In this document: positions 23,236-31,060 of the stretch, one piece after another | How the letters are laid out: the number at the start of each line of letters is the position of its first letter | How positions within the stretch are numbered: the stretch's first letter is position 1 | Origin: an uncultured bacterium | GTDB lineage: Bacteria; Bacillota_I; Bacilli_A; RFN20; CAG-826 | Assembly (NCBI GenBank): GCA_949296775.1 | Contig: CASFQA010000004.1 | Coordinates: forward strand, 3,698 to 67,697 | Reading direction: 5' to 3' | DNA: 64,000 nucleotides | The notes under the pieces: generated by a model | What the model was told of the DNA's origin: nothing | Databases searched by the model: none | What the model saw: the letters and a program-made list of their open reading frames with translations, nothing else | Program-made: the position numbers and the translations under genes

Positions 23236-23457
23236 TCATTGGTTAACAGAAGTTAGGGGGCGCTCACGATGCTCGATGACTTTTTTGATTTTCGAATTGA
23301 ATTTATCCCGATCGATCATCATGACGTTCCCGCATCCTAAGCACATGATTTTAATGTCGGCTCCGACCCGGACAATTTGAAACTGCTTGGAATGGGCGAA
23401 GCAAGGGTGCGGCCTTTTCATCTCGACGATATCATATAATTGATATTCGATCACCAT
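23236..23457 (-). CDS. DUF951 family protein (YyzM-like)
   Basis: DIVEMKRPHPC...RVGADIKIMCLGCG. Confidence 0.9.
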   Translation of the reverse strand: MVIEYQLYDIVEMKRPHPCFAHSKQFQIVRVGADIKIMCLGCGNVMMIDRDKFNSKIKKVIEHRERPLTSVNQ

Positions 23458-25064
23458 GGCTCATCCTCCATCTTGACCGCGGCTGGCAGTTTCGGCAGGC
23501 CCGGCATAGTAAGTATCGAGCCGCATAAAGGGATGATGAAGTTTGCCCCGCTGGCAAAATCAATGTCCCGGATTGATATTCTAAACCCTTTAGGAACCCC
23601 AAGCTTTTTGGGGTCATCGGAAAGCGAGTTCGGGGTTTTAGCCATGCAAACATATGGCTTGTCGAGCCCTAAGCCGGAAATTAAGCGAAGTTTTTCTTCG
23701 GCTAACGGGGCGTAATCCACTCCGTCGGCCCCATAGACTCTCTTCGCTATGCAATCGATTTTTTCCTTCACAGACCATTCGCGCGAGTAAAGAGGGTGAT
23801 AATGGCTTTCTTTCTTTGACAGGGTTGCTTGAACTAGCCGAGCCAAACCAATCGCCCCATCTCCGCCCTTTAAATAACCGTCGAGGAATGCATAAGGATA
23901 GCCGTGAGCTTGGCAATGGTCCTCCAAGGCCCTGATTTCCTCATCAGAATCGCTAGCGAAATGGTTGATCGCCACCACGACCGGCAAGCCGAATTGAGTA
24001 AGGTTCTCGTAATGCTTATCAAGGTTGGCCATTCCAAGGAGCAACGCTTCGACGTTAGGGGCCTCAAGATCGGAAAAAGCCACCCCGCCATGCATTTTTA
24101 AAGCTCGGATAGTAGCAACCAAAACCGCGCAGTCGGGGTGCAAGCCACCTTCTTGAGAAGCGATATCGAGGAATTTTTCCGCCCCTAAATCGGCTCCAAA
24201 CCCCGCTTCGGTTATGACTAGCGGAGACAGCCTTAAGGCCAATTTTGTGGCGATTAGGGAATTGCATCCGTGGGCGATGTTGGCGAAGGGGCCGCCATGG
24301 ATAAGGACCGGGTTGCCTTCGGCGGTCTGGGCAAGATTAGGAAGCAAGGCCATTTTCATCAATTTCATGACGGCATGGGTGATGTGGAAATCAGCCACCG
24401 TCAAAGGCTTCCCTTCACGGGTAAAAGCGACGGTTATTTTCGAAAGCCTTGCTAAGAAATCCTCTTCATCGGAGGCTAAACATAGGATAGCCATCAATTC
24501 GCTGGCGACGGTTATGCAGAAAGAACTCTGATGGGGAGTCCCTTTCTTATCGCCTAAGGCCACGGTAATTTCCCTAAGCGAACGGTCATTCATATCTAGG
24601 GACCGTTTCCAGATTATCCGCTCCGGATCGATATTCAATGGGTTGCCTTGATAAAGGGAGTTTTCAATCACCGCCGAGATCAAATTGATCGACGATGTCA
24701 AAGCGTGCATATCGCCGGTGAAGTGGAGATTGATGTCCTCGGATGGCTCGACGGTGGCCTTGCCTCCGCCGGTCGCCCCGCCTTTTAATCCGAATACCGG
24801 CCCTAGAGAGGGTTCGCGTAGGCAAAGCAGAGCCGGTTGGCCGAGCCGGCCGAAACCCATCGATAGAGCGATTGAGGCAGTGGTTTTCCCCTCACCGGCC
24901 TTCGTCGGGGTGATGGCGCTCACCAAAACGAGCTTCCCTTGTTTCGATCCCAAGGAATTAGATATCGAAGAATCAATTTTCGCCTTATCGTGGCCATAGG
25001 GAATCAGGTATCGTTCCTCGATGCCGGCCTTTTTGGCCACCTCGCTTATTTTCAAAAGTCCCAT
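23451..25064 (-). CDS. fhs: formate--tetrahydrofolate ligase
   Basis: TPTKAGEGKTT, REPSLGP.FG.KGGATGGG, HGGPFANIAHGCNS, TEAGFGADLGAEKF, TMPGLP. Confidence 0.97.
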   Translation of the reverse strand: MGLLKISEVAKKAGIEERYLIPYGHDKAKIDSSISNSLGSKQGKLVLVSAITPTKAGEGKTTASIALSMGFGRLGQPALLCLREPSLGPVFGLKGGATGGGKATVEPSEDINLHFTGDMHALTSSINLISAVIENSLYQGNPLNIDPERIIWKRSLDMNDRSLREITVALGDKKGTPHQSSFCITVASELMAILCLASDEEDFLARLSKITVAFTREGKPLTVADFHITHAVMKLMKMALLPNLAQTAEGNPVLIHGGPFANIAHGCNSLIATKLALRLSPLVITEAGFGADLGAEKFLDIASQEGGLHPDCAVLVATIRALKMHGGVAFSDLEAPNVEALLLGMANLDKHYENLTQFGLPVVVAINHFASDSDEEIRALEDHCQAHGYPYAFLDGYLKGGDGAIGLARLVQATLSKKESHYHPLYSREWSVKEKIDCIAKRVYGADGVDYAPLAEEKLRLISGLGLDKPYVCMAKTPNSLSDDPKKLGVPKGFRISIRDIDFASGANFIIPLCGSILTMPGLPKLPAAVKMEDEPW

Positions 25065-25097
25065 ATGCAATAACCTCGCTAGCCAAAGTTTAGACCC

Positions 25098-25799
25098 TTA
25101 ATACTTTTTCGAAAGCAAAATCTTCATCGCCCCATAGGCCAAAGTTAACCCGGCGGCGGAAGGGACGGTCATAACCGAGGCCGGGACCGGGCCGGAGCAA
25201 AGGGGCGGCTCTTGGGAAAAGGCGACTGTGACCCGCGAAAGATCCAAACCTCTTTTCCGAAGTTCCGACCTCATTTTCCTAGCAAGCGGGCAAGTCGAGG
25301 TTTTATCCAAAGTCGTTAGCTCGACTTGGCTCGGGTCCATTCGGTTGCCCATGCCTAAGCACATCAAAAAGGGGATATTATTCTTTTGGCAATACTCAGC
25401 CAAAGCCACCTTGGCCTTTACGTCATCGATGCAATCGATAACCACATCGAACCTTTCAAGCGAGTAATCCTTCACCGTCTCCGGTTCTAAATACGAGGGC
25501 GCCAAATCGATTTGCCCAGAAGCGGACAAAAACGGTTTTGCGTAATCGAAAGCCGCCTCAACCTTCTTCCTTCCGATATCCAAAGGCGAAAATAGGATCT
25601 GGCGATTGAGGTTATGGGGGCTCACTTCGTCTCCGTCAACCAGCAGAAAAGTGGAAACCCCGGTCCGCAACAGGCAAATAAAGCAGGTTCCCCCAACCCC
25701 GCCAAGCCCAAAGATGGCTATTCTCCCGGCCTGAATCTTCCTTAAGCCTTCCTCGCCTATCAATCCAAGCGTCCGTTCAGACCAATCCGGATAAGTCAT
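25098..25799 (-). CDS. tcdA: tRNA threonylcarbamoyladenosine dehydratase (ThiF/E1-like)
   Basis: GLGGVGG, NLNRQ, DCID, GNRMDP, CPLARKMR.ELRKRG. Confidence 0.85.
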   Translation of the reverse strand: MTYPDWSERTLGLIGEEGLRKIQAGRIAIFGLGGVGGTCFICLLRTGVSTFLLVDGDEVSPHNLNRQILFSPLDIGRKKVEAAFDYAKPFLSASGQIDLAPSYLEPETVKDYSLERFDVVIDCIDDVKAKVALAEYCQKNNIPFLMCLGMGNRMDPSQVELTTLDKTSTCPLARKMRSELRKRGLDLSRVTVAFSQEPPLCSGPVPASVMTVPSAAGLTLAYGAMKILLSKKY

Positions 25800-26649
25800 T
25801 TAGGATATCCTCCTCGGTCTTAATCCAATTAATCGGGAACTGGTGACGGAAAAACGTCTCCTGCCGCTTAACGTAATGACGGGTGTTCTTCTTTATGTCG
25901 GCCTTGGCTTCCTCAAGGGATATCTTCCCATCGAAATAAGGGAAAAGCTCCTTGACGCCGATGGCTTTGAAAGCCTGGCAATCACGGCCGTATTTTTCCA
26001 CTAATCGCCGGTCCTCATCCACTAAACCCATCTCAAACATCCGTTCGACCCGCTGCTCGACCCGGGGATAAATATCCTCGCGGTCAACTTCTAGCCCATA
26101 GAAACGAACGTCATAAATCGGCTGATGGGATTGCGACTGCTTGATTTCGCTTTTCTTTTCTCCAGCCAACGCCATCGCGATAAGCCGAAGCAGACGAACC
26201 CGATTATGAGGGTGGATGGTTTTGGCTTCGGCCTCGTCTAAAGACAACGCGGCGGCGAATAACTTCTCATCGTCAAGTTTTTCGTAAGCGGATAAATCAA
26301 CCTTTCTAAGCGAGGGGAACCGATAATCATAAAGCCCTGCCCGGATATAAAGCCCCGTCCCGCCGGCGATGACGACGTTCCGCCCCAGCTTTTCCAAAGT
26401 AACGATCGCCGAACGCAAGTCAGCTTGATACTCCGCGACCGAATAGGAAGAGGGCAAAGGGATGAAGTCAAAGAGGAAATGAGGGGCTTCCATCATCATC
26501 TCGACGCTGGGTTTGGCGGTGGCGATATTAAGCTCCTCATACACTTGGAAGGCATCGGCGTTGACGATCCCGGCATTGAGTTTTTTGGCTAAGCGGATCG
26601 CCAGCTCGCTTTTTCCAGAACCCGTCACGCCCGTTAAAACGATGATCAT
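25777..26649 (-). CDS. miaA: tRNA dimethylallyltransferase
   Basis: GVTGSGKS, NADAFQVY...IATAK, GGTGLY, AIGVKE, TRHYVKRQ.TF. Confidence 0.95.
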   Translation of the reverse strand: MIIVLTGVTGSGKSELAIRLAKKLNAGIVNADAFQVYEELNIATAKPSVEMMMEAPHFLFDFIPLPSSYSVAEYQADLRSAIVTLEKLGRNVVIAGGTGLYIRAGLYDYRFPSLRKVDLSAYEKLDDEKLFAAALSLDEAEAKTIHPHNRVRLLRLIAMALAGEKKSEIKQSQSHQPIYDVRFYGLEVDREDIYPRVEQRVERMFEMGLVDEDRRLVEKYGRDCQAFKAIGVKELFPYFDGKISLEEAKADIKKNTRHYVKRQETFFRHQFPINWIKTEEDILNDLSGLV

Positions 26650-28385
26650 TGGAGAATGGCCTTCATTTCCTCGAATAAATCACGCAAATCATCGCTGGCC
26701 GAGATGAAGTTTATATAATGCGGATTCTCCTCAATTGAAGCAGAAATCTTTGCAAAAGTGGCTTTTTTTGCTTCGTAATCATTTGAACCGAGGGAGAGGG
26801 CCAAAGCCTTTTGGGCCGCTTCTTTCTCAGCGAGAAGCCGCTGCAACTCGGCATCGGATGCAAAGGCTTCTTTGGCCGCCAAATAATTGATATAAGCCGG
26901 CTCTTGGGTAAGTTTTTCCTTCGCTTTGCCTAAGATGACGTCGACGGGATTTTCGTTCAATTCACCTAGCATCGAGTAGGCGTGGTTTTCGATAATCCTC
27001 ACCTTGACTATATGGCCCTTTAAATAGCTTGGCCCCGGGAAATTGACCAACTTATTCGATTCGGTATAGCCGGAGAGGATGGCGGCGTTTTTCTTGCTGG
27101 GCCCATCGACTAACACATCGTAGGTTTTGCCAACCATCTCAGCGGAATGATAGACGACGCCGGCTTCCACGACCTTCACCAGCCGGTTGAACCGTTCATG
27201 CTTAGTCTCGTCAGACACGTTATCGGCCATTTTCGCCGCCGGGGTCCCGACTCGCGGGGAATAGATGAAGGTAAAGGCGGCATCATACTTAACTTCCTCG
27301 CATAAGGTAAGGGTTTCCTCAAATTGCTCTTCGGTTTCATTGGGGAAGCCAACGATGATGTCGGTGGTGATCGCGCAGTCGGGCATCCTTTCCCGAATGG
27401 CTTTGACCAAGTCCAAATACTGTTCTCGGGTATAACGACGGCCCATCTTCCGAAGAACCTCGGTCGATCCGCTTTGGACCGGAAGGTGGATGCATTTCAT
27501 GATATTGGGATACTTGGCGATGACATCGAGCATCTCCAACGAAAAATCCCAAGGATGGGAAGTGGTAAAGCGAAGCCGGGGGATTCCAAGCTTCGCCACT
27601 TCTTCCAAGACCGTGGCAAAGCTGGTCCCGTCATGAAAATCCTTACCATAGGAATTGACGTTTTGCCCCAGCAAAGTTATCTCCTGATATCCCTCGGCGA
27701 CTAAATTCCGGCATTCCTCGATGATCGATTGCAACGGCCGGCTTCTTTCCCGTCCCCGGGTATAAGGGACGATGCAATAGGTGCAGAACTTATCGCAGCC
27801 ATAAGAAATATTGACGAAGGCTTTGTAAGGATCAAGCCGGATCGAGGGGAGGTTCTCGATTACATCCCCGGGATAAGAGATGACGTCGACCACTCCCTGA
27901 CGGGTGGTGATGACCTGATCGAGCAACGAAGGCAGATCCGCGATGTTATGAGTCCCGAAGATGAGTTTGATGAAAGGATAGGTCTTGATGAGTTTCTCGG
28001 CCTTGGCTTCCTCTTGCATCATGCATCCGCATACCCCGAGGATAAAATCCTTATCGGCGGTGGCGTTGGCCTTGAATTTGCCGATTTCCCCATAAACCTT
28101 GTCTTCGGCGTTTTCCCTGACCGCGCAGGTGTTGACGATGACTAAATCGGCGGTTTTTTCATCGCTTGTTTTGCTAAATCCGGCTTTTTCGAGGTAACCG
28201 GATATTATCTCTTCGTCCCTGACGTTGCCTTGGCAGCCAAAAGTCTTGACTAAATACTTCTTCCCTTGGGCAAAACGCCTTAAGGCATCCGAGTAAACGG
28301 CTTCATCATATTTGATGCTCGCCCCATCTTGGCGATTACGGGCTTTGCTTAAATCAGGCAACGATATTATTCGGCAACGGCTCAT
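26646..28385 (-). CDS. miaB: tRNA-i6A37 methylthiotransferase with about 100-aa C-terminal helical extension
   Basis: TFGCQGN, NTCAVRENAE, GCDKFCTYC (radical SAM), TDIIVGFP, TRAM domain, then an extra helical domain. Confidence 0.95.
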   Translation of the reverse strand: MSRCRIISLPDLSKARNRQDGASIKYDEAVYSDALRRFAQGKKYLVKTFGCQGNVRDEEIISGYLEKAGFSKTSDEKTADLVIVNTCAVRENAEDKVYGEIGKFKANATADKDFILGVCGCMMQEEAKAEKLIKTYPFIKLIFGTHNIADLPSLLDQVITTRQGVVDVISYPGDVIENLPSIRLDPYKAFVNISYGCDKFCTYCIVPYTRGRERSRPLQSIIEECRNLVAEGYQEITLLGQNVNSYGKDFHDGTSFATVLEEVAKLGIPRLRFTTSHPWDFSLEMLDVIAKYPNIMKCIHLPVQSGSTEVLRKMGRRYTREQYLDLVKAIRERMPDCAITTDIIVGFPNETEEQFEETLTLCEEVKYDAAFTFIYSPRVGTPAAKMADNVSDETKHERFNRLVKVVEAGVVYHSAEMVGKTYDVLVDGPSKKNAAILSGYTESNKLVNFPGPSYLKGHIVKVRIIENHAYSMLGELNENPVDVILGKAKEKLTQEPAYINYLAAKEAFASDAELQRLLAEKEAAQKALALSLGSNDYEAKKATFAKISASIEENPHYINFISASDDLRDLFEEMKAILQ

Positions 28386-29166
28386 AGGTGACCTCCTGGA
28401 AATCGCGGAAACGGAATGGGACTATCCGCGTGGCGCGCCCGAGATCATCGATCTCCAAGTAGGCCCCGCAGACTAAGGGGACCCCCGTCTCCGAACAATG
28501 GAAATAGGTCCCGTCTTGCTTAATGATCCGGCGAATGACGCTCTCGGGGGAAACGCCGATGATGGAATCGTCTTCCCCGCACATCCCGACATCGGCAATG
28601 AAGGCGGTTCCTTCCCGAATGTCGGCATCGGAGGTGCTCACATGGGTATGGGTTCCTAAGATCGCTGAGCAGCGGCCCCGAAAGCAATGGAAGAACAACT
28701 GCTTCTCCGAAGTCGATTCCCCGTGCAGATCGATAATCCGAATCGGGGGTAAATCGGGCAATATTTCTTCGAGCATCTCGAAGGGATTATTGAGCTTATT
28801 GGGGAGAAAGGCTGGCAAAAGAATTGAAACGACCGCCGCTTGCCAGCCAGCCCCGGAATAAACCATCGCCCCCCGCCCCTTGTCATAATCGGCGACGTTG
28901 AGCGGCCGGATTAAATCAGGACAATCGTCGATAAAGGACGAGATTTGCTTTTTATCGAGGAAATGGTTCCCTAAGGTAATGACGTCGGCCCCGGCGGCTT
29001 TTAGCCGGTTGTAGTCGGCGCGGGTCAAGCCCCGTCCTTTCGAGGCGTTTTCCCCGTTGACGATGGTCAGATGAGGCAAAAGCCTTTCCTTAAGCGAAGG
29101 AAGAAGGGCATCGACGGCTTGCAGTCCGACGGGTCCCACGACATCGCCTAAGAAAAGGACTCGCAT
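28354..29166 (-). CDS. ymdB: YmdB-like metallophosphoesterase
   Basis: LFLGDVVG, NGEN, TLGNH, DLHGESTSEK, GTHTHV, DVGMCG; directly after rny. Confidence 0.92.
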   Translation of the reverse strand: MRVLFLGDVVGPVGLQAVDALLPSLKERLLPHLTIVNGENASKGRGLTRADYNRLKAAGADVITLGNHFLDKKQISSFIDDCPDLIRPLNVADYDKGRGAMVYSGAGWQAAVVSILLPAFLPNKLNNPFEMLEEILPDLPPIRIIDLHGESTSEKQLFFHCFRGRCSAILGTHTHVSTSDADIREGTAFIADVGMCGEDDSIIGVSPESVIRRIIKQDGTYFHCSETGVPLVCGAYLEIDDLGRATRIVPFRFRDFQEVTYEPLPNNIVA

Positions 29167-29169
29167 ACA

Positions 29170-30750
29170 TCACTTAGCGGTTTCAATCGCCCGGTATTCG
29201 CGAATGACCGAAACCTTGATTTGGCCTGGATAAGTCATTTCCTTCTCGATCTTTTCCCGGAGCTGTTGAGCCAATAAAACCGATTCGGCATCCGAGATCT
29301 TTTCCGGCATGACCATGACGCGGATCTCCCGTCCGGATTGCATCGCGTAGGCTTGCTGAACGCCCTCGAAGGATTTCGCCAGCCCTTCCAGTTGCTCAAC
29401 CCGCTTAACATAGGTTTCGAGGGTTTCGCTTCTCGCCCCGGGGCGGGCCGCTGATAAGGTGTCGGCCGCGGCGACTAAATGGGCGATGATGTATTTGGCC
29501 TCGACGTCCCCGTGGTGGGATTCGATGGAATTGATGACCACGTCGGACTCACCGTATTTCTTCGCCAGCTGGGCCCCTAATTGGACATGGCTCCCCTCCA
29601 ATTCGAAATCGACCGATTTGCCGATGTCGTGGAGCAAGCCTGCCCGCCGGGCCAAATTGACGTCAAGGCCCAGCTCACCGGCCATCAAACCAGTAAGGTA
29701 AGCGACCTCCATCGAATGCTCCAAGGCATTCTGGCCATAAGAGGTCCGGTAATGGAGCCGGCCGATATAGGCGACCAATTCCTTGTTGATACGCGGCAAC
29801 CCAAGCTTGAAGCAGGCTTCCTCGCCGTACTTTTGAACGGTTTCCGCCACTTCCTTCTTGCATTTAGCCGACACATCCTCGATCCGGCCCGGTTGGATTC
29901 GGCCGTCTTTAACCAGGTATTCAAGCGTCCGCCTGGCGATTTCCCGCCTAATCGGATCGAAGCAGGAAACGGTGATGGCCTCGGGGGTGTCATCGATCAC
30001 CAAATCGACTCCGAGCTCTTGTTCGAGCACTCGGATATTCCGCCCTTCCCGGCCGATGATCCGCCCTTTCATTTCGTCGCTCGGCAATGCGACGACCGAA
30101 ACCGTCCGTTCAGTGGTGACGTCTTGGGCGTATTTTTGGCAAGCCAAGGACAAAAGGTCGATTGCTTTGGAAGCCGCCGTCTCCTTCGCTTCGTCTTCGG
30201 CGTTTTTGATATAAGCGGCGATCTCCATCGCCATTTTCGACTCGACCCGGGCCATGATCTCCTCTTTGGCCTCTTGGGTCGACATTCCGGAAACCTTTTC
30301 CAATTCTTGGATTATCGAATCGATCTTGGAATCCAATTCGGCTTGCCGGTTCTTATAGGATTCAATCGACTTTTCAAGCTGCTCGTTTTTCTTGTCCAAA
30401 GCGTTTTCCTTGGCGAGCAATTGGGCGTCGCGCTGATCGATCGCCTGTTCGCGGAGGGTAAGTTTTTGCTCGAGTGAAGCGAGTTCACCCTTACGGACCC
30501 GAATCTCGTTATCGGCTTGTTGCTTAGCCTCGAAAGCCGCTTGCTTAGCATCGATTTCCGCGTTCTTGATTAAATGCTCGGCTTTTATTTTCGCCTCTTT
30601 GAGCATCGAATCGGCGTTCCGCCCCGCGGTTTTGGATTTATGGGAAAGCAAAACCCAAGTGAGGATGACCCCGGCGGCGGCCGCCAACAAGGCCAAACCG
30701 ACCAGCAAGCCTATCCAAGCGCCGGTCGAAAGAAGAGAAGATAGAATCAT
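29170..30750 (-). CDS. rny: ribonuclease Y
   Basis: N-terminal TM helix, coiled coil, KH (DEMKGRIIGREGRNIR), HD (LLHDIGK), ADTLSAARPGAR. Confidence 0.97.
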   Translation of the reverse strand: MILSSLLSTGAWIGLLVGLALLAAAAGVILTWVLLSHKSKTAGRNADSMLKEAKIKAEHLIKNAEIDAKQAAFEAKQQADNEIRVRKGELASLEQKLTLREQAIDQRDAQLLAKENALDKKNEQLEKSIESYKNRQAELDSKIDSIIQELEKVSGMSTQEAKEEIMARVESKMAMEIAAYIKNAEDEAKETAASKAIDLLSLACQKYAQDVTTERTVSVVALPSDEMKGRIIGREGRNIRVLEQELGVDLVIDDTPEAITVSCFDPIRREIARRTLEYLVKDGRIQPGRIEDVSAKCKKEVAETVQKYGEEACFKLGLPRINKELVAYIGRLHYRTSYGQNALEHSMEVAYLTGLMAGELGLDVNLARRAGLLHDIGKSVDFELEGSHVQLGAQLAKKYGESDVVINSIESHHGDVEAKYIIAHLVAAADTLSAARPGARSETLETYVKRVEQLEGLAKSFEGVQQAYAMQSGREIRVMVMPEKISDAESVLLAQQLREKIEKEMTYPGQIKVSVIREYRAIETAK

Positions 30751-31060
30751 CAAATAAACTCCTTAACCGCCCAAGGCACGATTACGCTGCTTCAAGGAAA
30801 GCGGACAACTCTTTATATCTTAAGCCAGATGGCTGTCGGACAAGGGGTTTGTACCTCAGGCACGAAGATATTTTAGCAACTATTGTAAAAATTGACGAAG
30901 GTTTTTTCTCCATTCGTCAGCCAAGCGCAAAAGGCCAAGGAAATATCCCCGCATATCGAAAAACTGTAAGGAAAATTTAACAAGGCTTTTGCGGTCTATT
31001 TGCTTGCAAAACAAGAAATTTTATCCAGTTTTTGCGAACGAAAACTCAAATTGAGTACTT

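What the first reader, a model, noticed from the sequence alone, without database searches (positions are those of the whole stretch)
26646..26957. MiaB fused to a YmcA/YlbF (RicA-like) domain
After the TRAM domain (…HAYSMLGEL) MiaB continues for about 100 aa of Cys-free helical sequence (VILGKAKEKLTQEPAYINYLAAKEAFASDAELQRLLAEK…EENPHYINFISASDDLRDLFEEMKAIL). This fits the Com_YlbF pattern by eye. In B. subtilis ymcA (ricA) lies immediately downstream of miaB, and RicA/RicF/RicT form the Fe-S-containing Y-complex that works with RNase Y, encoded two genes upstream here. A fusion would tether a radical-SAM tRNA enzyme to the RNase Y machinery, or reuse the helical domain. The Cys-bearing tail of RicA is absent. 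I do not know of this fusion being described.
Basis: partly seen in the sequence, partly recalled or inferred. Interest (0 to 1): 0.65.

Follow-up and report, generated by a model that had tools for sequence, protein, structure and literature searches.

The report
MiaB fused to tail-less RicA
A tRNA-modifying iron-sulfur enzyme (MiaB) in this uncultured gut-type Bacilli genome carries the small RNase Y helper protein RicA as a real, conserved C-terminal domain, and the same fusion arose several times, which hints that the two proteins work together.

Summary
The minus-strand ORF 26646..28385 encodes a 579-aa protein. Residues 43-476 are a full MiaB (equivalog model, all six cluster cysteines). 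Residues 480-579 are a five-helix Com_YlbF domain that scores above Pfam's cut-off. Profile and fold searches place the domain nearest B. subtilis RicA/YmcA. The genome's only other Com_YlbF gene is the RicF orthologue. RicT, with its full cysteine motif, and RNase Y are also present.

The fusion is not an assembly artefact. It occurs in 35 of 36 species genomes of the genus, in all 16 sampled genomes of a sister genus, and in 119 of the 120 closest database proteins.

In 35 of 40 unfused relatives examined, ricA directly follows miaB in the +1 frame, overlapping or abutting it. A MiaB tree needs at least seven fused/split changes, including one clean re-split.

The domain is under purifying selection (dN/dS about 0.14-0.16 against 0.05 for the MiaB core). 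The Cys-bearing RicA tail is missing, but it is also missing from unfused RicA across the order.

Whether the tether only fixes co-expression or reflects a MiaB-Ric partnership is untested. I found no published description.

The parts
26646..28385 (-). miaB::ricA fusion gene, 579 aa plus TGA stop
   Evidence: ORF list and translation; four Pfam domains in one frame; homologues of the same length and architecture
26958..28259 (-). MiaB part: UPF0004 (res 43-144), radical SAM (191-361), TRAM (416-476)
   Evidence: Pfam. NCBIfam TIGR01574 MiaB equivalog scores 530 bits against a cut-off of 355, over residues 43-476. C51, C87, C121, C197, C201 and C204 are invariant in 25 fusions. Foldseek top hits are MiaB structures 7mjz/7mjw, E 5e-40.
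26949..26957 (-). three-residue linker (N477-E478-N479) between the last TRAM strand and the first RicA helix; part of the junction motif GEL-x-x-DP in most fusions of the main clade
   Evidence: AF2 secondary structure: strand 472-476, helix from 480, pLDDT about 80-91; junction sequences
26649..26948 (-). RicA (YmcA) core domain, residues 480-579, five helices, no C-terminal Cys tail
   Evidence: Pfam PF06133 at 37-41 bits. Profile against PDB: RicA 6prh 3e-8, YmcA 2pih 5.5e-8, RicF 1.5e-4. AF2 domain model pLDDT 91.4. Foldseek top 11 hits are all Com_YlbF-family structures, TM 0.55-0.71.
25777..26649 (-). miaA, whose start ATG overlaps the fusion gene's TGA (ATGA)
   Evidence: TIGR00174 at 236.6 bits; sequence at 26640-26652
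28354..29166 (-). ymdB-like metallophosphoesterase, overlapping the miaB start by 32 nt
   Evidence: ORF list; TIGR00282 at 220.8 bits, below its cut-off of 254; Pfam YmdB in the gene table
29170..30753 (-). rny (RNase Y)
   Evidence: TIGR03319 at 668.6 bits

Best explanation
This is a genuine bifunctional gene fusion. In the order to which this genome belongs, miaB and ricA are adjacent and usually overlap by a few bases, with ricA in the +1 frame, so they are probably translationally coupled. A small indel at the junction joined the two frames. The result is a complete MiaB (the methylthiotransferase that makes ms2i6A37 in tRNA) followed, three residues after the TRAM domain, by the five-helix core of RicA.

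The fused domain is the genome's only RicA. I infer that it still does RicA's job. It would pair with the free RicF through the Com_YlbF helical interface and act with RicT and RNase Y, while the MiaB part modifies tRNA. Under this reading the fusion mainly fixes 1:1 co-production and co-location of two proteins that were already co-translated.

Shown: domain identities, orthology, conservation, repeated origin, purifying selection, and retention of ricF, ricT and rny. Inferred: RicF pairing, Y-complex activity, and any benefit of the tether.
For: Domain identities:
- Pfam finds four domains in one frame, and Com_YlbF scores above its gathering score.
- The MiaB equivalog model scores 530 bits, and the cluster cysteines are invariant.

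Orthology is reciprocal:
- The fused-domain profile hits RicA at 3e-8 and RicF at 1.5e-4.
- The stand-alone gene's profile hits RicF at 1.7e-5 and YmcA at 0.36. That gene lies upstream of rsmD/coaD, as ylbF does in B. subtilis by my recollection of its gene order, which was not checked here.
- Only two Com_YlbF genes exist in the genome.

Structure:
- The AF2 domain model has pLDDT 91. Its best Foldseek matches are 6prk, 2pih and 6prh.

Conservation:
- 35 of 36 genus genomes carry the fusion.
- So do 37 of 251 family genomes, including all 16 of sister genus g24.
- 119 of the 120 top database homologues carry PF06133.

Origin:
- 37 of 40 split relatives examined have a ricA downstream of miaB. 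In 35 of those 37 it lies in the +1 frame, and in 35 the domain starts within -20 to +22 nt of the miaB stop.
- The MiaB tree needs at least 7 state changes, and 6 of them are forced by strongly supported branches.

Selection:
- dN/dS is 0.137 for the RicA domain against 0.047 for the core in the least saturated pair.

Partners:
- RicT is present with CX4CCX30CX4CC intact. It is retained in all 43 high-quality relatives.
- RNase Y is encoded in the same operon.

Literature:
- miaB-ricA synteny is noted in PMC6751060.
- Translational coupling of ricA to miaB is suggested in S. aureus (bioRxiv 10.64898/2026.05.22.726194).
Against: - No experiment or complex model here shows that the tethered domain binds RicF or RicT.
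- The domain lacks the C-terminal tail. In B. subtilis that tail carries the cluster-2 ligand C141, and deleting it abolishes RicT binding (PMC6751060). The Ric complex here must therefore be built differently, or RicA-RicT contact may be lost.
- The linker is only three residues. This could sterically hinder the RicA-RicF dimer geometry seen in 6prk.
- The RicA domain evolves fast: 20-32% identity across the genus where the MiaB core keeps 71-77%.
- dS is near saturation for most pairs, so the dN/dS values are rough.
Confidence: 0.6

Rival explanations
1. Rosetta-stone reading. RicA (with RicF and RicT) is a working partner of MiaB, and the fusion makes an existing physical interaction permanent. 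One version: the Fe-S-bearing Ric complex helps to rebuild or protect MiaB's auxiliary [4Fe-4S] cluster, which established MiaB enzymology holds to donate sulfur during catalysis. Another version: it couples the ms2i6A status of tRNA to RNase Y-dependent RNA processing.
For: - The same two genes fused at least about five times independently, and the fusion was kept across whole genera.
- Tight miaB-ricA coupling holds across the order.
- The synteny extends to B. subtilis and S. aureus (PMC6751060; bioRxiv 10.64898/2026.05.22.726194).
- Both partners are Fe-S proteins acting on RNA.
- The very short linker holds the RicA helices next to the tRNA-binding TRAM domain.
Against: - Overlapping genes fuse easily by a one-base change, so recurrence may reflect mutational opportunity rather than benefit.
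- A clean re-split inside the fused clade (G011) and the mixed states within genera g30 and g69 suggest the two states are nearly equivalent.
- RicA and RicF in this order lack the cysteines that hold cluster 2 in B. subtilis.
- I found no reported MiaB-RicA interaction in the papers searched.
Confidence: 0.22
2. Repurposed domain. The helical module no longer acts in a Ric complex. Instead it serves MiaB itself, as a dimerisation handle (RicA forms homodimers) or as an extra RNA-contacting surface next to TRAM.
For: - The RicT-binding tail is lost.
- The domain's sequence diverges quickly.
- Helix 1 starts three residues after the TRAM domain.
- RicA crystallises as a dimer (PMC6751060).
Against: - ricF and ricT are retained in essentially every fused genome. 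RicF has no other Com_YlbF partner in the genome.
- Tail loss predates the fusion and is shared with unfused RicA.
Confidence: 0.12
3. The two proteins are still made separately, by internal initiation (for example at Met472 in ...YSMLGEL...) or by proteolysis, so the fusion exists only at the DNA level.
For: Gene callers produced 111-aa products starting MIGEL/MIGKL on some contigs. A Met sits just before the junction in many fusions.
Against: - No Shine-Dalgarno-like purine run precedes that ATG in the window.
- The Met lies inside the last TRAM strand, and the position is not always Met: unfused MiaB mostly reads L here (...YSLIGEL...).
- AF2 models the junction as a confident continuous chain.
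Confidence: 0.05
4. Artefact: an assembly or sequencing error merged two ORFs, or the Com_YlbF match is a chance coiled-coil hit.
For: Only that the window comes from a draft assembly (10 contigs) of an uncultured organism, and that reads could not be checked.
Against: - The same architecture and length appear in hundreds of independent contigs from several sources and in 35 of 36 species of the genus.
- The HMM score is above the curated cut-off.
- Profile hits to RicA, the fold match and the synteny all agree.
Confidence: 0.01

Closest known systems
RicA (YmcA) of Bacillus subtilis, a Com_YlbF family protein (PDB 2pih, 6prh, 6prk)
   Same: - Five-helix Com_YlbF fold (TM 0.65-0.71).
- Best profile match.
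- Gene position immediately downstream of miaB.
- Co-occurrence with RicF, RicT and RNase Y.
   Different: - Here it is covalently attached to the C-terminus of MiaB.
- It aligns to about residues 8-111 of the RicA chains only.
- The roughly 30-residue tail with Cys141 is absent. In B. subtilis that tail provides a cluster-2 ligand and is needed for RicT binding.
- Sequence identity is only about 11-17%.
MiaB (YmcB) tRNA-i6A37 methylthiotransferase (TIGR01574; Bacteroides uniformis structures 7mjv-7mjz)
   Same: UPF0004, radical SAM and TRAM domains; both cysteine triads; 41% identity and TM 0.79-0.81 to the solved MiaB structures; miaA is adjacent.
   Different: It carries a 100-residue helical C-terminal domain. 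That domain is absent from the solved MiaB structures (441-448 residues) and from the roughly 477-543-aa open frames of unfused relatives.
Unfused, overlapping miaB-ricA gene pairs of the same order (e.g. G043, locus L009) and of other Bacillota (B. subtilis ymcB-ymcA, S. aureus miaB-ricA)
   Same: Same genes in the same order; the ricA start lies in or next to the miaB stop; RicA in this order is already about 90-127 aa and tail-less.
   Different: A stop codon and a frame change separate the two products. In G516 only a single in-frame TAA followed by ATG separates them.

Membership tests
Com_YlbF (PF06133) / RicA-YmcA | Match to the family HMM above the curated gathering score | tested here: met
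   37.0 bits in the whole protein and 41.1 bits for the tail alone; gathering score 23.9; HMM positions 10-100 of 105
Com_YlbF (PF06133) / RicA-YmcA | Helical-bundle fold of the solved family members | tested here: met
   AF2 domain model pLDDT 91.4 with five helices. Foldseek ranks 1-11 are 6prk, 2pih, 2oeq, 6prh and 2iaz, probability 1.00, TM 0.55-0.71.
Com_YlbF (PF06133) / RicA-YmcA | Orthology to RicA rather than to the paralogues RicF or YheA | tested here: met
   Fused-domain profile: RicA 3.1e-8, RicF 1.5e-4, YheA-like 2iaz 0.088. Stand-alone gene: RicF 1.7e-5, YmcA 0.36. Gene position after miaB.
Com_YlbF (PF06133) / RicA-YmcA | C-terminal cysteine (B. subtilis C141) that ligates Fe-S cluster 2, and the C-terminal tail needed for RicT binding (PMC6751060) | tested here: not met
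   The protein ends 0-1 residues after the domain, and the domain has no Cys. The same holds for unfused RicA across the order.
Com_YlbF (PF06133) / RicA-YmcA | Forms a RicA-RicF heterodimer and a RicAFT complex that loads RicT onto RNase Y | not testable with these tools
   Only the presence of partners was shown: RicF, RicT, RNase Y.
MiaB (TIGR01574) | Equivalog HMM above its cut-off, scoring better than the MtaB and RimO models | tested here: met
   530 bits against a cut-off of 355; MtaB 308 and RimO 278, both below their own cut-offs
MiaB (TIGR01574) | Three N-terminal Cys for the auxiliary cluster and CxxxCxxC for the radical-SAM cluster | tested here: met
   C51, C87 and C121, and C197-x3-C201-x2-C204, are present and invariant in 25 fusions.
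MiaB (TIGR01574) | TRAM RNA-binding domain, and a MiaA to supply the i6A37 substrate | tested here: met
   TRAM at 416-476; miaA is adjacent, TIGR00174 at 236.6 bits
MiaB (TIGR01574) | ms2i6A37 formation in tRNA | not testable with these tools
   Needs LC-MS of tRNA nucleosides.
RicT (YaaT) partner | CX4CCX30CX4CC cysteine motif conserved in firmicute RicT (PMC6751060) | tested here: met
   C-GMPI-CC, then 30 residues, then C-GKLK-CC in the 371-aa product of L015 1309..2424; NF041131 at 221.8 bits

The most novel reading that the evidence does not exclude
The repeated, selectively maintained fusion reports a direct MiaB-RicA partnership that also exists in unfused Bacillota. RicA, with RicF and RicT, would be an accessory factor of the methylthiotransferase, for instance in renewing its sacrificial auxiliary Fe-S cluster. 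Alternatively it would be the physical link between tRNA ms2i6A modification and RNase Y-directed RNA processing. Either would explain the long-noted miaB-ricA synteny.
Probability: 0.2. Interest if true: 0.8.

Novelty: new variant of a known kind. Interest (0 to 1): 0.5.

Why it matters
The molecular role of the Ric (Y-complex) proteins is still debated, and the conserved miaB-ricA neighbourhood has been noted but never explained. A natural fusion that arose repeatedly and is kept under selection gives a concrete, testable lead: MiaB and RicA may act side by side.

It also shows that a whole order of reduced-genome Bacilli runs its Ric system without the RicA (and mostly RicF) cysteine tails. 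In B. subtilis those tails hold the second Fe-S cluster and anchor RicT. Those features therefore cannot be universal requirements.

If the fusion proves to be only a by-product of overlapping genes, it is an ordinary though well-documented case of gene fusion and fission.

Tried and rejected
- Single-sequence phmmer of the tail and of the stand-alone gene against PDB found no family member. Profiles were needed.
- The one search of protein representatives, run with the 110-aa tail, gave only 10 hits. Most were contig-end fragments of the same fusion.
- The search for related loci with alignment A1 failed for lack of a conserved stretch. The single-protein scan returned only two fused loci plus TRAM-only matches.
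- The phylum-level genome sample repeated the class sample and added nothing.
- Literature searches for MiaB+YmcA+fusion, RicA+MiaB, Y-complex+methylthiotransferase and MtaB+YvfG found no description of the fusion and no reported MiaB-RicA interaction.
- The assembly-artefact and chance-coiled-coil readings were considered and rejected (see rival explanations).
- The earlier scan notes near this place were unrelated.

Full report
**What is there.** The minus-strand ORF 26646..28385 encodes 579 residues. Pfam finds four domains in the one frame:
- UPF0004, residues 43-144
- Radical_SAM, 191-361
- TRAM, 416-476
- Com_YlbF, 490-578, at 37.0 bits against a gathering score of 23.9 (41.1 bits when the last 104 residues are scanned alone)

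NCBIfam's MiaB equivalog model covers residues 43-476 at 530 bits (cut-off 355). It scores well above the MtaB and RimO models. Both cysteine triads are present: C51/C87/C121 and C197/C201/C204. They are invariant in an alignment of 25 fusion proteins.

**Identity of the tail.**
- A profile of fused tails hits B. subtilis RicA (6prh, 3e-8) and YmcA (2pih, 5.5e-8). It scores better on these than on RicF (6prk_A, 1.5e-4) or the YheA-like SP1372 (0.09).
- An AlphaFold2 model of the domain alone has mean pLDDT 91.4 and five helices.
- Its eleven best Foldseek matches in the PDB are all Com_YlbF-family structures, with TM 0.55-0.71.
- In the full-length model the first helix starts at residue 480, three residues after the last TRAM strand.
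- The MiaB part matches the solved MiaB structures at E 5e-40.

**The rest of the Ric system in this genome.**
- The 1.52-Mb genome has only one other Com_YlbF gene. It encodes 112 aa and lies upstream of rsmD and coaD. From memory, unchecked here, that is the ylbF neighbourhood of B. subtilis. Its profile hits RicF (1.7e-5) rather than YmcA (0.36).
- The fused domain is therefore the RicA orthologue, and the only RicA.
- RicT is present (NF041131, 222 bits) with the CX4CCX30CX4CC motif intact.
- RNase Y, a YmdB-like phosphoesterase and MiaA flank the fusion gene in one operon-like run. The miaA ATG overlaps the fusion's TGA.

**Not an artefact.**
- In 35 of 36 species genomes of the same genus, the Com_YlbF match lies in an open frame of 577-652 aa. 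One of these (G016) has a TGA inside the match. The 36th genome (G011) is split.
- Of the 120 closest proteins in a 5.8-billion-protein collection, 119 carry PF06133 together with the MiaB domains. They come from many independent contigs and sources. The public names attached are simply MiaB of 'Bacilli bacterium', 'Mollicutes bacterium' or 'Candidatus Enteromonas'.
- The exact protein is also encoded on a second assembly.

**How it arose.** I scored a junction profile (TRAM end plus RicA) on 251 genomes of the family. Uninterrupted full-length matches were found in:
- all 17 genomes of the window's genus
- all 16 genomes of a second genus (g24)
- 2 of 15 genomes of g30
- 1 of 3 genomes of g69
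- the single genome of g67

Outside the family, one genome of another family (G057) is fused. None of the remaining genomes in a class-wide sample of 399 is fused.

I examined 40 unfused relatives:
- 37 have a ricA downstream of miaB.
- In 35 of those 37 it lies in the +1 frame.
- In 35 the RicA domain starts between -20 and +22 nt from the miaB stop, so the genes overlap or abut.
- In G516 they share a frame, separated only by TAA followed by ATG.

A maximum-likelihood tree of the MiaB core (74 rows) needs at least seven fused/split changes, six of them forced by strongly supported branches:
- one fusion at the base of a 99%-supported clade holding g1, g24 and one further MAG
- separate gains in g30, g69, g67 and G057
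- one reversal, G011, nested deep inside the fused genus

The G011 junction reads GAA TTG GCA TAA gagc ATG GAT GAA AAC GAC CCT. That is a clean stop, a four-base spacer and a new start, not a one-base sequencing slip. The tree is a gene tree built by a quick search, so the exact count is provisional.

**Constraint.** Across the genus the RicA domain keeps only 20-70% identity where the MiaB core keeps 71-89%. Its length and helix pattern are nevertheless fixed. Nei-Gojobori dN/dS values:

| Pair | MiaB core | RicA domain |
|---|---|---|
| L018-L046 (least saturated) | 0.047 | 0.137 |
| Window's gene vs its nearest relative (L025) | 0.051 | 0.156 |

dS is high (0.9-1.7), so these are rough. They do show purifying selection on the tail.

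**The missing Cys tail.**
- In B. subtilis, RicA C141 ligates Fe-S cluster 2 together with RicF C134 and C146 and RicT C167. Deleting the last 23 residues of RicA abolishes RicT binding (PMC6751060).
- The fused domain ends with the fifth helix and has no cysteine.
- This is not a result of the fusion. Unfused RicA across the order is 90-127 aa and mostly has 0-4 residues after the domain. Only two of 37 have any Cys in that last stretch.
- RicF tails are short too. They carry one terminal Cys in this genome and its close relatives, and none in G057.
- The Ric complex of this lineage must therefore differ from the B. subtilis model, while RicT keeps all six cysteines.

**Mechanism.**
- Best supported (0.6): a fusion of two already co-translated genes in which each half keeps its job. 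MiaB makes ms2i6A37. The tethered RicA pairs with free RicF and acts with RicT and RNase Y. RicF is retained in nearly all fused genomes, and RicT in all 43 high-quality relatives. Published work shows that RicA and RicF are needed to load RicT onto RNase Y (PMC10245838).
- Main rival (about 0.2): the fusion reports a real MiaB-RicA partnership. Recurrence, retention and the very short linker favour this. The ease of fusing overlapping genes, the re-split in G011 and the mixed states within genera argue that the fused and split forms may be nearly neutral alternatives.
- Less likely: repurposing of the domain (about 0.12) and separate translation of the two halves (about 0.05). An artefact is essentially excluded.

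**Novelty.** Papers note the miaB-ricA synteny (PMC6751060) and suggest translational coupling in S. aureus (bioRxiv 10.64898/2026.05.22.726194). None of my searches found the fusion described. Database records carry the architecture only through automatic Pfam annotation and are named MiaB. I rate it a new variant of known kinds. Its interest is moderate and rests on the lead it gives to the unresolved function of the Ric proteins.

Noticed in passing
L015 1309..2424 (own genome, contig C2 about 83471-84586): RicT of the window's genus has a long, very basic (R/K/H/N/G-rich) C-terminal extension. Open frames are 346-464 aa in the genus (apart from one contig-split copy) against 272-314 aa, with two exceptions, in other families of the order; the own protein is 371 aa. 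It could be an added RNA-binding tail.
   Followed up: no
window 23451..30753, minus strand: One tightly packed gene run: rny, ymdB-like, miaB::ricA, miaA, a ThiF-family gene, and fhs. The ThiF-family gene's best NCBIfam hit is the ct6A37 synthase TcdA (100 bits, far below the cut-off). Two or three enzymes acting on tRNA position 37 therefore sit together behind RNase Y.
   Followed up: partly
L036 2690-2715 (genome G011, same genus): A secondary split of the fused gene...GGC GAA TTG GCA TAA gagc ATG GAT GAA AAC GAC CCT. This is a clean stop, a 4-nt spacer and a new ATG, in a genome nested inside the fused clade.
   Followed up: yes
L052 / L098 (genome G516, another family of the class): miaB and ricA lie in the same frame, separated only by TAA followed directly by ATG, one point mutation away from a fusion.
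   Followed up: yes
L002 1465..1803 (own RicF), L013, L017, L010: RicF of this genome and its nearest relative ends in ...RYKGC. G011 RicF ends in ...RKCLEK. G057 RicF has no Cys in its last 45 residues. The four-Cys tail of B. subtilis RicF is not conserved in this order.
   Followed up: partly
Foldseek result for the full-length model: Rank 6 is PDB 9a6d, titled an integrative model of MTAB-YVFG. The paralogous methylthiotransferase MtaB is modelled there with a partner protein, YvfG, a possible parallel to MiaB-RicA. No paper text on it was found.
   Followed up: partly
window 28354..28385: The miaB::ricA start overlaps the end of the ymdB-like gene by 32 nt. The N-terminal Met and the SLPD..KARNR stretch are conserved in homologues, so the long start appears real.
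   Followed up: partly
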